The notes below the pieces were generated by a model. The model was not told where the DNA came from, did no database searches, and saw nothing but the letters and a program-made list of their open reading frames with translations. The position numbers and the translations under genes are program-made. From a virus (lineage: Duplodnaviria > Heunggongvirae > Uroviricota > Caudoviricetes): 41,741 nucleotides of DNA. The DNA lies in the IMG/VR virus record IMGVR_UViG_3300045988_117301; one strand, written 5' to 3'. Of this stretch, positions 1 to 41,741 are shown one piece after another. The number at the start of each line of letters is the position of its first letter. Within the stretch, counting starts at the first letter, position 1.

Positions 1-151
1 TGCGGGAAAGCAGACGCAAGAAATAGCGGCAATGTCTGTCCGTCCAGTCGAGCATAGGAGCAATGCTAAACCGAGAACTCCCGTAAGCGCCAGTTTTCTC
101 AGGCATCGCGCTGGTTTGATTAGTTTTCTGTGTTTCAGGATTATCGTGCAT
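1..151 (-). CDS. dusA: tRNA-dihydrouridine synthase A, 5' portion (continues beyond window start); N-terminus supplied by prophage DNA
   Basis: Minus-strand frame from ATG at 151-149 (internal ATG at 106-104) reads [50 protein letters not shown] and stays open to position 1; [14 protein letters not shown] is the conserved DusA N-terminal motif. Confidence 0.7.
44..105. repeat. attL: left copy of imperfect direct repeat, 8-bp identical core TCGAGCAT at 48-55
   Basis: About 79% identity to 41683-41741 over roughly 57 bp; core tcgagcat identical at both ends. Confidence 0.7.
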
Positions 152-184
152 TTTTGAACATTTCAGGCTATTTTTCTCGCGTTA

Positions 185-219
185 GGTTCCCGCACAGGTT
201 CCCACGATTTATGGGAACC
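185..219. promoter_or_regulatory. GGTTCCC repeat cluster upstream of int (two direct copies 185-191 and 197-203, one inverted 213-219); candidate integrase arm-type sites or int promoter elements
   Basis: Exact heptamer repeats seen directly; similar GGTTCCC/GGCTCCC pair at 41626-41643 on the other att arm. Confidence 0.35.
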
Positions 220-239
220 CGAAATAACGAGGTCGTGTA

Positions 240-1337
240 ATGGCGTACTATAACATAGAGAAACGACTAAAATCCGATGGCACACCACGCTATCGCTGTA
301 ATGTGATTATCAAAGAAAAAGGTGTTATCACTTACAGGGAAAGCAAAACATTCCCTAAACATGCCCATGCCAAAACATGGGGTACACAGAAAGTGATGGA
401 ATTAGATCTATATGGCATTCCATCATCAAATGCAGTTGACGGACTTACAGTCCGTGACTTACTACACAAATATTTAAATGACCCAAATGCCGGAGGTAAA
501 GCAGGTCGTACTAAAAGATATGTGCTGGAACTGCTTATGGATAGTGACATCTCCGCGATCAAACTATCCGAACTGACAGAAAATGACGTAATTGAACATT
601 GTAGGCTAAGAAACAACGCTGGTGCAGGTCCAGCAACAGTCAGCCACGATGTTAGTTATCTTGGCAGTGTTCTGGATGCGGCCAAACCTGTATACGGAAT
701 TAATTACACATCAAACCCGGCGAAAAGTGCTCGTCCATATCTACTTAAACTTGGTTTGATTGGTAAATCAAACCGTCGTAATCGTAGACCGGCATCTGAT
801 GAACTGGACATGCTCATTGAAGGTCTTCAACAACGATCTACACATAAATGCTCAAAAATTCCGTTCGTTGATATCCTCAAATTTTCTGTGTGGTCCTGTA
901 TGCGAATCGGAGAAGTATGCCGGTTACGATGGGAAGATCTCGACCAGGAACAAAAATCTATACTCGTAAGAGACAGGAAAGATCCACGCAAAAAGGAAGG
1001 CAACCACATGAAAGTAGCCTTGCTTGGGGAAGCCTGGGATATCGTCCAACGACAGCCCCAAAAATCGGAATTCATTTTTCCATATAACAGCACTTCTGTT
1101 ACTGCGGGATTTCAGAGGGTAAGAAGCAAATTAGGTATTAAAGATCTGCGATACCATGATTTGCGTAGAGAAGGGGCAAGTCGCTTATTTGAGGCTGGTT
1201 TTAGTATTGAGGAAGTCGCCCAAGTTACAGGGCATCGTTCATTAAACGTGCTATGGCAGGTATATACCGAACTGTATCCGAAATCTTTACATAATCGTTT
1301 TGAAGAGCTCCAAAAGAGCAGAAATAAGACCTCTTGA
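240..1337 (+). CDS. int: Tyrosine recombinase/integrase (dusA-targeting phage integrase)
   Basis: 365-aa ORF with ATG at 240 and a Shine-Dalgarno GAGG upstream; C-terminal region with R..HxxR..Y-type motifs (HDLRREGASR, LYPKSL); adjacent to attL. Confidence 0.9.
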   Translation: MAYYNIEKRLKSDGTPRYRCNVIIKEKGVITYRESKTFPKHAHAKTWGTQKVMELDLYGIPSSNAVDGLTVRDLLHKYLNDPNAGGKAGRTKRYVLELLMDSDISAIKLSELTENDVIEHCRLRNNAGAGPATVSHDVSYLGSVLDAAKPVYGINYTSNPAKSARPYLLKLGLIGKSNRRNRRPASDELDMLIEGLQQRSTHKCSKIPFVDILKFSVWSCMRIGEVCRLRWEDLDQEQKSILVRDRKDPRKKEGNHMKVALLGEAWDIVQRQPQKSEFIFPYNSTSVTAGFQRVRSKLGIKDLRYHDLRREGASRLFEAGFSIEEVAQVTGHRSLNVLWQVYTELYPKSLHNRFEELQKSRNKTS

Positions 1338-1385
1338 CACTGTTTATCCATACAGTTAAAAATAACACTGTATACAAACACAGTA
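1334..1385 (+). promoter_or_regulatory. Promoter with perfect -35 TTGACA (1334-1339) overlapped by two LexA (SOS) boxes, CTGT-N8-ACAG, at 1340-1355 and 1368-1383
   Basis: cACTGTttatccatACAGtt and cACTGTatacaaacACAGta match the E. coli LexA box pattern; located immediately upstream of the dinI-like gene. Confidence 0.6.
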
Positions 1386-40270: not shown

Positions 40271-40306
40271 TTTTCCCGGGTGCAGCCGGTTTTGATGGAG
40301 AAAATT

Positions 40307-40588
40307 ATGAACACCTTGTTTTTACTGATGGCTGAATTCAATACCCCAAACATTGAACTCTCAGCAGTTAGCCAAAAGTACTTTGGTATGAGTCCAGCCA
40401 CGGCAGAAGCAAAAGCAAACGCTTGTAAGTTGCCCGTTCCAACATATCGCATCGGCACATCACAAAAAGCAAAACGTTGCATCAATATTCAGGATCTTGC
40501 GGAATACATAGACAAAAGGCGAGAAGAAGGACGTATCGAGTGGGAACAGGTCAGAACAGTCAAACAGAAGGGCAAAGAACATCACTAA
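40307..40588 (+). CDS. PrtN-family / excisionase-like small DNA-binding protein
   Basis: MNTLFLLMAEFNTPNIELSAVSQKYFGMSPATAEAKANACKLPVPTYRIG... resembles PrtN-family proteins as recalled; last gene of the early-left operon; Shine-Dalgarno GGAG. Confidence 0.5.
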   Translation: MNTLFLLMAEFNTPNIELSAVSQKYFGMSPATAEAKANACKLPVPTYRIGTSQKAKRCINIQDLAEYIDKRREEGRIEWEQVRTVKQKGKEHH

Positions 40589-41005: not shown

Positions 41006-41539
41006 CTACTGAGCAAATTTAAGAAAGATATCCTGCAGCTCATCAATGACTGCCGACATCACATAACCGCACTGTTCCATGCGGAAACCAAAAGACTCGT
41101 AATACTGCACCAGTTCTGGTACTGGCTCTACAATGTGGACAACTTTACATTCAACAGCTTTACAAAATATAAAAGCACTCATAAGAGTGAGTAAAACCAT
41201 GCGCCCTTTCAATGGGTGAGATTCATCTTCTCTAGAAAACCTTTCGATCATATGGATACGAAAGATGTTTTCTTCAACCCCATAAACACAAATTGCTGCT
41301 CCTGATGGTATTCCCTGAACCCGACCTTGCTGAACAAGTTTTATGCAGAACTCATACTTTTCTCTGGAGTTGCCATAGGTACTTAACGCATAGTCCCATT
41401 CAAGCTCACCATAGCCACCACACAGAATCTTGTAATCATCATCACTGAGCGGACCAACAGCAAGAGGTAAGCCGACATGATCAATAATCAACTGGATATT
41501 GTTACGTACTGATTGACCTATCTCGTCCAGGGTAAGCAT
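41006..41539 (-). CDS. Hypothetical 177-aa protein, AT-rich cargo gene; possibly a divergent GNAT-like fold
   Basis: About 40% GC versus about 52% in phage core genes; C-terminal ...VHIVEPVPELVQYYESFGF resembles the GNAT motif B ending (Y..GF) but no clear acetyl-CoA Q/RxxGxG motif; Shine-Dalgarno GAGAGG. Confidence 0.55.
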   Translation of the reverse strand: MLTLDEIGQSVRNNIQLIIDHVGLPLAVGPLSDDDYKILCGGYGELEWDYALSTYGNSREKYEFCIKLVQQGRVQGIPSGAAICVYGVEENIFRIHMIERFSREDESHPLKGRMVLLTLMSAFIFCKAVECKVVHIVEPVPELVQYYESFGFRMEQCGYVMSAVIDELQDIFLKFAQ

Positions 41540-41667
41540 CATGGCCTCTCAAGCGGAACACTAAAAGTCGCATTATATCTCATTCTTAAGCCGCGTATGG
41601 ATTACACCTTGAAATGAAAACGCCGGGTTCCCAATAGGCTCCCGCAAAGTATATAACTACTTGTTTT

Positions 41668-41741
41668 TCAAAAACGGTACATCCTATCGAGCATTGGTGC
41701 AACGCTAAACCGACCACTCCAGTGAACGTCAGTTTTTTCAG
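41668..41741 (-). pseudogene. dusA: Displaced native 5' fragment of dusA (enters from beyond the window end, terminates in phage DNA)
   Basis: Minus strand reads ...EKTDVHWSGRFSVAPMLD then RMYRF and stop (TGA at 41670-41668); FSVAPMLD is the native DusA N-terminal motif, interrupted at the att core. Confidence 0.6.
41683..41741. repeat. attR: right copy of imperfect direct repeat, core TCGAGCAT at 41687-41694
   Basis: Aligns to 44-105 at about 79% identity; identical 8-bp core. Confidence 0.7.

What the first reader, a model, noticed from the sequence alone, without database searches (positions are those of the whole stretch)
185..219. GGTTCCC repeats on both att arms as candidate integrase arm-type sites
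Upstream of int there are two direct GGTTCCC copies (185-191, 197-203) and one inverted GGGAACC (213-219). On the other prophage end, about 45 bp inside attR, there is GGTTCCC (41626-41632) followed by GGCTCCC (41637-41643). In the circular phage these would flank the core on both P and P' arms, as lambda arm-type Int sites do. The left cluster also overlaps the int / restored-dusA divergent promoter region.
Basis: seen in the sequence. Interest (0 to 1): 0.4.

Follow-up and report, generated by a model that had tools for sequence, protein, structure and literature searches.

The report
Integrase arm-type sites in dusA prophage
The five GGTTCCC-like repeats at the two ends of this dusA-inserted prophage are very probably the arm docking sites for the phage integrase's extra N-terminal domain. 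This is an ordinary lambda-style arrangement, but I found no description of it for this integrase family in the papers I could search.

Summary
GGTTCCC occurs at 185, 197, 213 (inverted) and 41626, with GGCTCCC at 41637. These four exact copies are the only ones in the 41.7 kb window, and all lie in phage DNA beside the dusA crossover (TCGAGCAT, 48-55 and 41687-41694).

About 130 related loci show the same layout:
- Two direct repeats sit 11 bp apart, about 62 and 51 bp from the core on the int-distal arm.
- Two direct repeats sit 12 bp apart, about 136 and 148 bp from the core on the int-proximal arm, often followed by an inverted copy.

The heptamer sequence changes by lineage (GGTTCCC, GCACCCC, GGACACC, GTACACC, TTGCTAC and others). 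It tracks residues about 20-37 of a beta-beta-beta-alpha domain at the integrase N-terminus. Two natural mosaics swap the proximal repeats together with this domain while the rest of Int stays similar; in the one pair where RdfN could be compared, it is 90% identical.

Best reading: these are lambda-type arm sites bound by the Int N-domain. Binding is inferred, not shown. Overlap with the int/dusA' promoters could not be confirmed. This is a new member of a known kind, of moderate interest.

The parts
48..55 (.). Left copy of the crossover identity TCGAGCAT (attL core), inside the dusA coding sequence (dusA is on the minus strand).
   Evidence: Direct repeat 38-102 / 41677-41741. The attB rebuilt from 1-55 + 41695-41741 is 100% identical to intact dusA; the best match is at least 99% identical in 3621 E. 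coli records.
56..151 (-). Phage-supplied replacement 5' end of dusA (dusA'); the start codon is at 151-149 on the minus strand.
   Evidence: Reading. Elements of this family are known to restore the dusA 5' end and supply a promoter (PMC4482086, PMC8409611).
151..180 (.). Run of phased T-tracts (cATTTTTgaacATTTcaggctATTTTTctc) between dusA' and the first arm site. It may be an intrinsic bend or an accessory-factor site (inferred).
   Evidence: The sequence. A similar T-tract pattern is conserved in enteric relatives, and 10-bp TGAATTNC repeats occupy this position in marine relatives. Not followed up.
184..191 (+). Int-proximal arm site 1 (P'1-like), AGGTTCCC, starting 136 bp after the core.
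   Evidence: The first called repeat starts 135-137 bp after the core in 40 of 50 relatives, whatever the core-to-ATG distance. No variant within 185-191 in about 78 E. coli-lineage loci.
196..203 (+). Int-proximal arm site 2 (P'2-like), AGGTTCCC, 12 bp after site 1.
   Evidence: A perfect 8/8 direct repeat at 10-13 bp spacing is present in 56/86 loci, against 8/1720 shuffles. Only the central bases 199 and 200 vary in the E. coli lineage.
213..220 (-). Int-proximal arm site 3 (P'3-like), an inverted copy (GGGAACCc on the + strand).
   Evidence: An inverted copy matching the lineage's own motif is seen in 19 of 55 scorable loci, mostly enteric plus several marine ones. Only position 216 varies in the E. 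coli lineage.
240..1337 (+). Tyrosine integrase of the dusA-specific family. Codons 1-58 (240-413) form the candidate arm-binding domain, followed by the core-binding domain (about residues 71-171) and the catalytic domain (about 186-364).
   Evidence: PF00589. Int_N weakly on residues 72-165 (E 0.029, below cut-off) and no Pfam model on 1-65. AF2 models give E2-10, E16-26, E29-38, H41-58 with pLDDT about 90.
40280..40588 (+). rdfN, a PrtN-like recombination directionality factor (excisionase). It is the main rival candidate for binding the repeats.
   Evidence: PF11112 at 4e-23. phrog_1300 excisionase. RdfN was shown to be the RDF of a dusA element (PMC8409611).
41625..41632 (+). Int-distal arm site 1 (outer), gGGTTCCC, starting 62 bp before the right core.
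   Evidence: The outer distal site starts 61-62 bp before the core in 6 of 6 elements with a defined core, and carries each lineage's own motif with 0-2 mismatches in 8.
41636..41643 (+). Int-distal arm site 2 (inner), AGGCTCCC, 11 bp after the outer site and starting 51 bp before the core.
   Evidence: The inner distal site starts 49-51 bp before the core in 6 of 6 elements and often departs from the proximal motif by 1-2 nt. GGCTCCC also serves as proximal site 2 in Kosakonia, Pluralibacter and Phytobacter relatives.
41687..41694 (.). Right copy of the crossover identity TCGAGCAT (attR core).

Best explanation
The five repeats are arm-type binding sites of the attP of a dusA-specific, lambda-style (heterobivalent) tyrosine integrase.

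In the excised phage the layout is: two sites 62 and 51 bp before the core, then the core TCGAGCAT, then the dusA' 5' coding stretch, then three sites 136, 148 and 165 bp after the core, then int.

Proposed mechanism (inferred):
- The small N-terminal beta-beta-beta-alpha domain of Int (residues about 1-58) reads the 8-9-bp sites (C)AGGTTCCC.
- The core-binding and catalytic domains of the same protomers bind and cut the dusA core.
- The arms fold back onto the core to build the integrative intasome and, with RdfN, the excisive one.
- Neighbouring sites 11-12 bp apart lie on one face of the helix, which would allow cooperative binding.
- The proximal cluster sits directly upstream of int, in the int/dusA' intergenic space. 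Int bound there would probably also damp int expression, as shown for KplE1 IntS. This last step is the least supported.

Shown here: the repeats exist, are non-random, keep their position across the family, change sequence by lineage, and track the Int N-domain. Inferred: physical binding by Int, any requirement for recombination, and autoregulation.
For: 1. Clustering. All 4 exact GGTTCCC copies in 41.7 kb lie in the arms.

2. Both arms in relatives. In 8 independent elements the lineage's own motif recurs on the distal arm. These are lambdoid, P2-like and non-tailed double-jelly-roll prophages from E. coli, Yersinia, Morganella, Klebsiella, Salinivibrio, Vibrio, Shewanella and Pseudoalteromonas. 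Where the core is defined, the distal sites start 61-62 and 49-51 bp before it in 6/6.

3. Distant members. Relatives at 35% Int identity show the same layout with TTGCTAC (BcepIL02, Ralstonia GP4) or GTGCTCC (Marinobacter AS1). Rhizobium shows GTACGAC on the distal arm with degenerate proximal copies.

4. Proximal repeat pair. A perfect 8/8 direct repeat at 10-13 bp spacing lies within 110 nt upstream of int in 56/86 loci. Controls gave 8/1720 shuffles and 2/344 segments inside int. The first site starts 135-137 bp after the core in 40/50 loci although the core-to-ATG distance ranges 172-205.

5. Footprint within the E. coli lineage. Only 3/21 heptamer positions vary against 14/21 spacer positions (Fisher p = 0.0013).

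6. Domain architecture. Int has an extra N-terminal domain ahead of the core-binding and catalytic domains. Its strand-strand-strand-helix order matches that described for the lambda Int arm-binding domain. Full-length lambda Int structures are among the top Foldseek hits.

7. Covariation. Motif class tracks Int residues about 20-37: GKY.YREN with GCACCCC, GKH.HRET with GTACACC, GKR..[NS]ES with GGACACC, G[VI]IT[YF]RES with GGTTCCC. The four columns with the highest adjusted mutual information with motif class are I23, I30, N5 and S35. Eight of the top 11 columns lie in residues 1-40 (hypergeometric 2e-6).

8. Natural swaps.
- Morganella phage IME1369_02 and M. morganii H1r Ints are about 98% identical from residue 38 on. 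They differ at 14 of the first 37 residues. The divergent DNA tract begins exactly at the first arm site, and the motifs differ (GGACACC against GCACCCC).
- L185 and L187 have RdfN 90% identical and Int 71-355 85% identical. Their beta2-beta3 segments and motifs differ (GCACCCC against GGACACC).

9. Not a host factor. Co-resident elements in one genome use different motif classes, for example Xenorhabdus hominickii L107 and L119.
Against: - There is no binding or recombination data for these sites.
- The N-domain model alone gave no significant Foldseek hit to the lambda or Tn916 Int N-domains (best E 0.07).
- It shows no sequence or profile similarity to lambda Int 1-64 (hhalign probability 3.9%).
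- No Pfam arm-binding model matches it.
- RdfN homologues are present in all 8 elements for which both arms were examined, so RdfN cannot be excluded by absence.
- A crude pairwise test on those 8 elements correlated motif similarity with RdfN identity (rho 0.40, p 0.03) and not with overall Int 1-40 identity (rho -0.04).
- The proximal sites and the N-domain coding DNA are adjacent, so a single recombination tract would carry both without any functional coupling.
- No sigma-70-like promoter was found overlapping the cluster, so the autoregulation step is speculative.
Confidence: 0.78

Rival explanations
1. The repeats are binding sites for the excisionase RdfN (PrtN-like) and not for Int. RdfN would coat direct repeats about one helical turn apart, as lambda Xis or P2 Cox do, and bend the arms for excision.
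For: - An RdfN homologue is present in all 8 elements for which both arms were examined.
- Recombination directionality factors typically bind direct repeats spaced about 10-11 bp (established knowledge).
- A crude 8-element test correlated motif similarity with RdfN identity (rho 0.40).
- KplE1 TorI binds in attL and represses int (PMC2951348).
Against: - L185 and L187 carry RdfN proteins 90% identical, with differences mostly in the C-terminal tail, yet their repeats differ (GCACCCC against GGACACC/GGGACGCC). Their Int beta2-beta3 segments differ accordingly.
- L188 and Kp4884-1 share GCACCCC with YeP1 although their RdfN is only 52-55% identical.
- The columns most informative about motif class lie in Int residues 1-40.
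- The same motif on both arms, with an inverted copy, is the pattern of Int arm sites. Characterised directionality factors usually occupy one arm (established knowledge).
Confidence: 0.12
2. The left cluster is mainly a transcriptional operator for the divergent int and dusA' promoters. Under this reading the copies on the other arm have no role in recombination.
For: - The cluster lies in the 88-bp int/dusA' intergenic space.
- In distant relatives the last inverted copy overlaps the int start.
- Many relatives carry further own-class copies inside int at nt +140 and +175, too far from the core for a classical arm.
- The KplE1 precedent for autoregulation.
Against: - The proximal site position is fixed relative to the core and not to the int ATG.
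- The distal pair sits at a conserved distance from the core, next to unrelated genes in different phage types.
- No consensus promoter overlaps the cluster.
- A regulatory role would add to the arm-site role and would not replace it.
Confidence: 0.06
3. The second direct copy and the inverted copy (197-219) form a hairpin that acts as an RNA or cruciform element, for example in the int leader. Alternatively, the repeats are chance matches with no function.
For: - GGTTCCC-9 nt-GGGAACC could pair.
- In L087 both halves changed together (GGTCCCC / GGGGACC).
Against: - Kosakonia, Pluralibacter and Phytobacter relatives have GGCTCCC paired with GGGAACC or GGGGACC, which breaks complementarity.
- Many lineages lack the inverted copy but keep the direct pair.
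- No terminator-like site is present.
- Chance is excluded by the shuffle and int-CDS controls and by the label permutation.
Confidence: 0.02

Closest known systems
Bacteriophage lambda attP arm-type sites (P1, P2, P'1, P'2, P'3) bound by the N-terminal domain of lambda Int
   Same: - Five short repeats unrelated to the core, split two and three between the arms, with the group of three on the int side.
- Neighbouring sites about one helical turn apart.
- An integrase with an extra N-terminal strand-strand-strand-helix domain ahead of the core-binding and catalytic domains.
- A separate small directionality factor.
   Different: - No detectable sequence or profile similarity between the N-domains, and Foldseek on the isolated domain was not significant.
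- Different site sequence.
- The int-side sites are much farther from the core (136-172 bp after it), because about 100 bp of replacement dusA coding sequence lies in between.
- The directionality factor is PrtN-like, and in this phage it is encoded at the opposite prophage end.
- The target is a protein-coding gene whose 5' end the phage replaces.
KplE1/HK620 IntS-TorI module (Panis et al. 2010, PMC2951348)
   Same: - int lies at attL with its upstream region inside the recombination arm.
- The directionality factor is encoded at the other prophage end.
- P' arm-type sites lie just upstream of int.
- That system shows negative autoregulation of int by Int and by the directionality factor.
   Different: - The promoter and the autoregulation are not mapped here, and no consensus promoter was found.
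- Different integrase family, directionality factor family and target (tRNA argW against dusA).
dusA-specific integrases and RdfN (Farrugia et al. 2015, PMC4482086; Durand et al. 2021, PMC8409611)
   Same: - The same integrase family.
- The same target, with restoration of the dusA 5' end.
- The same PrtN-like directionality factor.
   Different: Those papers define the 21-bp core repeats, the directionality factor and a promoter for dusA. They do not mention arm-type sites or an arm-binding domain: the term 'arm-type' occurs zero times in both. The arm architecture described here adds to that family description.

Membership tests
Lambda-type (heterobivalent) tyrosine integrase attP with arm-type sites | The integrase carries a separate N-terminal DNA-binding domain in addition to the core-binding and catalytic domains. 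| tested here: met
   AF2 models give E2-10, E16-26, E29-38, H41-58 (pLDDT about 90), a flexible linker at 59-70, then the core-binding and catalytic domains. The Pfam Int_N match on residues 72-165 is weak (E 0.029, 15.5 bits, below the 27-bit cut-off) and nothing is assigned to 1-65.
Lambda-type (heterobivalent) tyrosine integrase attP with arm-type sites | The N-terminal domain is homologous to, or shares the fold of, the lambda/Tn916 Int arm-binding domain. | tested here: inconclusive
   The order of strands and helix is the same, and full-length lambda Int structures (1z1g, 1z1b, 5j0n) align over 357-380 columns. The isolated domain gave no significant Foldseek hit, no PDB sequence hit and an hhalign probability of 3.9% against lambda Int 1-64.
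Lambda-type (heterobivalent) tyrosine integrase attP with arm-type sites | Repeated sites, different in sequence from the core, are present on both arms of attP. | tested here: met
   Window sites at 184-220 and 41625-41643. Own-lineage motifs occur on both arms in 8 independent elements plus 4 distant ones, one of them degenerate.
Lambda-type (heterobivalent) tyrosine integrase attP with arm-type sites | The sites are conserved in position across relatives and evolve together with the integrase domain that reads them. | tested here: met
   Positions. Class-to-residue correspondence and mutual information. Mosaic pairs L084/L098 and L185/L187. Caveat: the proximal sites are physically linked to the N-domain coding DNA.
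Lambda-type (heterobivalent) tyrosine integrase attP with arm-type sites | The Int N-domain binds the sites directly, and the sites are required for recombination. | not testable with these tools
   This needs EMSA or footprinting and attP x attB assays with mutated heptamers.
Lambda-type (heterobivalent) tyrosine integrase attP with arm-type sites | Accessory bending-protein sites (IHF, Fis, directionality factor) lie between the arm sites and the core. | not tested
   Only seen by eye: AT-rich spacers of about 43 bp on the distal arm and phased T-tracts at 151-180. No scan or comparison was made.
dusA-specific integrase elements (Farrugia 2015) | The element is inserted in the 5' end of dusA, is flanked by semi-conserved direct repeats, replaces the dusA 5' end, has int adjacent to it, and carries a PrtN-like RdfN. 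| tested here: met
   Direct repeat 38-102 / 41677-41741. The rebuilt attB equals intact dusA. int lies at 240-1337 next to dusA'. rdfN matches PF11112. The closest phages are mEp460 and PhiR40_1 at 98-100%.
KplE1-type autoregulated integrase genes (int promoter overlapping attL) | The int promoter overlaps the Int/directionality-factor binding sites in attL. | tested here: inconclusive
   The geometry fits: the sites end 20 bp upstream of the int ATG, and int and dusA' are divergent. No sigma-70-like promoter was found in 152-239. The only weak match lies upstream at 116-144.

The most novel reading that the evidence does not exclude
The first 37 or so codons of int, together with the adjacent repeats, form an exchangeable specificity cassette. 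It gives each dusA element its own private arm code: a simple residue-to-base correspondence between beta2-beta3 and the centre of CAGnnnCCC. Co-resident elements would then not cross-react.

The same code would be reused for gene control. Int bound at the proximal cluster would throttle int and the rebuilt host gene dusA'. In about a third of lineages it would also bind own-class copies embedded in the int coding sequence at codons 47-49 and 59-61.
Probability: 0.3. Interest if true: 0.55.

Novelty: new member of a known kind. Interest (0 to 1): 0.4.

Why it matters
dusA-specific integrases mobilise prophages, Shiga-toxin and cdt phages, non-tailed vibriophages and resistance islands across Proteobacteria. 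In the papers I could search, their att sites have been defined only by the 21-bp core.

Knowing the arm sites has practical uses:
- It sets the minimal functional attP, roughly from 65 bp before the core to 175 bp after it.
- It explains why int and its upstream region travel together.
- It predicts which co-resident elements can cross-mobilise each other.
- It offers a natural set of about 15 matched pairs of N-domain and heptamer, useful for studying or engineering arm specificity.

Conceptually this is the lambda paradigm applied to another family, so it refines existing knowledge and does not overturn it.

Tried and rejected
- **Chance.** Rejected by shuffle, int-CDS and cross-element controls.
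- **RNA or DNA hairpin at 197-219.** Rejected because relatives break complementarity or lack the inverted copy. No terminator-like site is present.
- **Host-factor site.** Rejected because elements in the same genus, and even the same genome, use different motifs.
- **Excluding RdfN by absence.** This failed: P2-like and non-tailed elements also carry RdfN homologues.
- **Crude pairwise-identity test on 8 elements.** It did not favour the Int N-domain. I give it less weight than the mosaic pairs because whole-domain identity is a poor proxy for specificity residues. It is reported as counter-evidence.
- **Fold and sequence comparison of the isolated N-domain with solved structures and with lambda Int.** Nothing significant.
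- **Promoter search in and around the cluster.** Only one weak match, upstream of the cluster.
- **Avoidance of the motif elsewhere in the genome.** True for this window (0 copies outside the arms against about 5 expected) but not general in relatives.
- **Search for further relatives of the Morganella rdfN/distal arm among deposited phages.** No useful hits.
- **First viral-contig scan with the single protein.** It returned only near-identical E. coli loci. These served only for the within-lineage footprint.

Full report
**What is in the window**

The window is one complete lambdoid prophage, 98-100% identical around int to Escherichia phages PhiR40_1 and mEp460. It is inserted in the 5' end of dusA, which runs on the minus strand.

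The ends are marked by an imperfect direct repeat, 38-102 and 41677-41741. The only stretch of perfect identity around the junction is TCGAGCAT, at 48-55 and 41687-41694. Joining 1-55 to 41695-41741 rebuilds a 102-nt sequence that is 100% identical to uninterrupted dusA. The best match is at least 99% identical in 3621 E. coli records. So the boundaries are secure, and everything between 56 and 41686 is phage DNA.

The phage supplies a replacement dusA 5' end with its ATG at 151-149 on the minus strand. The other relevant genes are:
- int at 240-1337 (PF00589);
- a DinI-like gene at 1399-1647;
- near the other end, a PrtN-like excisionase gene at 40280-40588 (PF11112).

This is the family of dusA-specific integrases described by Farrugia et al. 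2015. The PrtN-like protein is the directionality factor RdfN of Durand et al. 2021. Neither paper mentions arm-type sites. Searches of the held library for 'arm-type' or 'heterobivalent' together with dusA found nothing relevant.

**Check of the observation**

GGTTCCC lies at 185, 197 and 41626 on the plus strand and at 213 on the minus strand. GGCTCCC lies at 41637.

- The four exact copies are the only ones in 41.7 kb. Their total number is unremarkable, since shuffles give 5.1. Their placement is the point: all are in about 190 bp of arm DNA, and three are within 35 bp.
- No further copy with one mismatch or fewer lies in either arm.
- The real unit is 8-9 nt, (C)AGGTTCCC.
- Measured from the first base of the core, the sites start 62 and 51 bp before it on the int-distal arm. 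On the int-proximal arm they start 136, 148 and 165 bp after it, the last one inverted.
- Spacing is 11 bp on the distal arm and 12 bp on the proximal arm.

**Comparative test: both arms**

The decisive evidence comes from relatives. Yersinia phage YeP1 (Int 68% identical) has exactly the same layout with a different heptamer. GCACCCC occurs twice in direct and once in inverted orientation upstream of int, and twice on the other side of the core. Morganella phage IME1369_02 uses GGACACC.

I then examined both arms in eight independent elements of very different virus types. These were lambdoid, P2-like, and a non-tailed double-jelly-roll Vibrio prophage.
- In all eight, the heptamer defined from the int-proximal arm recurs on the distal arm.
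- Wherever the core is defined (6 of 6), the two distal sites start 61-62 and 49-51 bp before it.
- Relatives with only about 35% Int identity show the same plan. Burkholderia phage BcepIL02 and Ralstonia phage GP4 use TTGCTAC, and Marinobacter phage AS1 uses GTGCTCC. A Rhizobium phage has GTACGAC on the distal arm, with degenerate proximal copies.

**Comparative test: the proximal arm in many loci**

Across 86 loci, comprising 78 species-dereplicated genome loci, seven phage elements and the window itself:
- A perfect 8/8 direct repeat at 10-13 bp spacing lies within 110 nt upstream of int in 56 loci. Controls gave 8 of 1720 shuffles and 2 of 344 segments inside int.
- The first proximal site starts 135-137 bp after the core in 40 of 50 scorable loci, although the distance from core to int ATG ranges from 172 to 205. 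The sites are therefore positioned relative to the recombination core and not to int. One caveat applies. The dusA' coding stretch also fixes this distance, so position alone cannot rule out a role tied to dusA'.
- Within the E. coli lineage (about 78 loci at 83-100% Int identity), variation falls in the spacers. Fourteen of 21 spacer positions vary against 3 of 21 heptamer positions, and those three are the central bases (Fisher p = 0.0013).

**Who binds the repeats**

The elements share only Int, RdfN and the att region. Elements in the same genus, and even the same genome, use different motifs. Examples are Xenorhabdus hominickii L107 and L119, and the Morganella phage against M. morganii H1r. 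This rules out a host factor and leaves Int or RdfN.

The case for Int:

1. *Domain structure.* Int has an extra N-terminal domain. AlphaFold models of the full protein (pLDDT 86) and of residues 1-68 (pLDDT 88) give three strands and a helix (E2-10, E16-26, E29-38, H41-58). A flexible linker follows, then the core-binding and catalytic domains. This is the domain order of heterobivalent integrases, and full-length lambda Int structures are among the best Foldseek hits.

2. *Covariation.* Motif class follows residues about 20-37:
   - GKY.YREN with GCACCCC, including Raoultella and Klebsiella Ints only 53% identical overall;
   - GKH.HRET with GTACACC;
   - GKR..[NS]ES with GGACACC;
   - G[VI]IT[YF]RES with GGTTCCC;
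   - TK.IYRES with GGATCCC.

   The four alignment columns most informative about motif class are I23, I30, N5 and S35. Eight of the top eleven lie in residues 1-40 (2e-6).

3. *Two natural mosaics.*
   - The Ints of Morganella phage IME1369_02 and M. morganii H1r are about 98% identical from residue 38 to the end. They differ at 14 of the first 37 residues. At the DNA level the divergent tract begins exactly at the first arm site and ends near codon 37. The motifs differ, GGACACC against GCACCCC.
   - Loci L185 and L187 have RdfN proteins 90% identical, with differences mostly in the C-terminal tail, and Int 71-355 85% identical. Their beta2-beta3 segments and motifs differ.
   - Conversely, elements sharing GCACCCC can have RdfN only 46-62% identical.

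**Evidence against, or missing**

- Nothing here shows binding.
- The isolated N-domain gave no significant structural or sequence match to the lambda or Tn916 arm-binding domains, and no Pfam arm-binding model fits. Homology with the lambda domain is therefore unproven.
- RdfN homologues occur in all eight elements for which both arms were examined.
- A crude pairwise test on those eight correlated motif similarity with RdfN identity and not with overall Int 1-40 identity.
- The proximal sites and the N-domain coding DNA are adjacent, so they would be co-inherited even without functional coupling.

I weigh the mosaic pairs, the column-level association and the two-arm geometry more heavily. 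I put about 0.78 on Int arm-type sites and about 0.12 on RdfN sites.

**Promoter claim**

The cluster does lie in the 88-bp space between the dusA' ATG and the int ATG. Elements of this family are known to provide a promoter for dusA and a constitutive Pint. However, neither the consensus scan nor a relaxed scan found a sigma-70-like promoter overlapping the cluster. The only weak match (TTGATT at 116-121, GATTAT at 139-144, plus strand) lies upstream, and would place the sites in the int leader.

The KplE1 IntS precedent makes autoregulation plausible. There, P' arm sites overlap Pint, and both Int and the directionality factor repress it. Autoregulation remains untested here.

**An unexpected side observation**

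In about a third of the dereplicated relatives, an inverted copy of the lineage's own motif lies inside int. This is not the case in the window's E. coli lineage.
- It sits at nt +175 (codons G59-[V/I/A]60-P61, the inter-domain linker). In the GCACCCC class there is also a copy at +140 (W47-G48-A49).
- Codon and residue choices follow the class, for example GGG GTG CC, GGT GTA CC, GGG ATC CC and GGG ATA CC.
- The own-class inverted motif occurs in int nt 131-215 in 17 of 47 loci, against 2.8% for other classes' motifs. No shuffle reached this in 5000 label permutations. Only 3 of 47 loci have a copy in nt 301-1000.
- These copies are too far from the core, about 330-370 bp, to be classical arm sites. 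They point to a regulatory use of the same recognition code.

**Verdict**

The arrangement is the lambda paradigm in a family where I found no description of it, so I rate it a new member of a known kind, of moderate interest. Its added value is a family-wide map of site positions and a set of matched pairs of N-domain and heptamer.

Noticed in passing
Relatives only, e.g. L002:1640-1682, L094, L097, L110, L129, L136, L167 (int nt +140 and +175). Window codons 59-61 at 414-422 carry no copy.: Many relatives carry an inverted copy of their own arm motif inside int, at codons 59-61 (G-[V/I/A]-P); the GCACCCC class also has one at codons 47-49. Codon choice tracks the motif class. The own-class motif occurs in 17/47 dereplicated loci against 2.8% for other classes' motifs (no shuffle reached this in 5000 label permutations). 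The window's E. coli lineage lacks it (GGC ATT CCA).
   Followed up: partly
L084:130-315 against L098:1440-1620; L185 against L187: Two natural mosaics exchange a roughly 180-bp cassette holding the proximal arm sites plus int codons 1-37, while the rest of int stays 85-98% identical. In the L185/L187 pair rdfN is 90% identical. The Morganella phage's distal arm is a hybrid, GGACACC at the outer site and GCACCCC at the inner.
   Followed up: partly
window 1334-1383: Two tandem LexA-box-like sequences (CTGT-N8-ACAG) lie at 1340-1355 and 1368-1383, next to a TTGACA at 1334-1339. They sit just upstream of the DinI-like gene (1399-1647), which suggests an SOS-controlled prophage dinI.
   Followed up: no
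window 151-180; marine relatives such as L146, L154, L169 upstream of their arm sites: Phased T-tracts lie between the dusA' start and the first arm site. In Vibrio, Shewanella and Colwellia relatives the same position holds 3-4 copies of a 10-bp TGAATTNC repeat. These could be an intrinsic bend or sites for RdfN or another accessory factor.
   Followed up: no
window 41006-41542 (-): A 178-aa ORF lies directly inside attR, between rdfN and the distal arm sites. It has no Pfam or NCBIfam match and only phrog_4350 (unknown function). This is a typical position for an accessory ('moron') gene.
   Followed up: partly
L107 and L119 (Xenorhabdus hominickii DSM 17903); L091 and L108 (one Enterobacteriaceae metagenome-assembled genome): Single genomes carry two integrases of this family with different arm-motif classes (GTACACC and GCACCCC). 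This fits non-cross-reacting arm codes in co-resident elements.
   Followed up: no
whole window: GGTTCCC/GGGAACC is absent from the 41.5 kb outside the arms, against about 5 copies expected. Six relatives tested with their own motifs do not show such avoidance, so this is probably chance.
   Followed up: yes
L188:900-1200: This Serratia-like viral contig has a contiguous attP (rdfN, then GGTCACC/GCACCCC distal sites, then the GCACCCC proximal pair, then int). The sequence at the expected core position (CCAGATATCGAAC) does not resemble the dusA core TCGAGCAT, so it may use a variant target.
   Followed up: no
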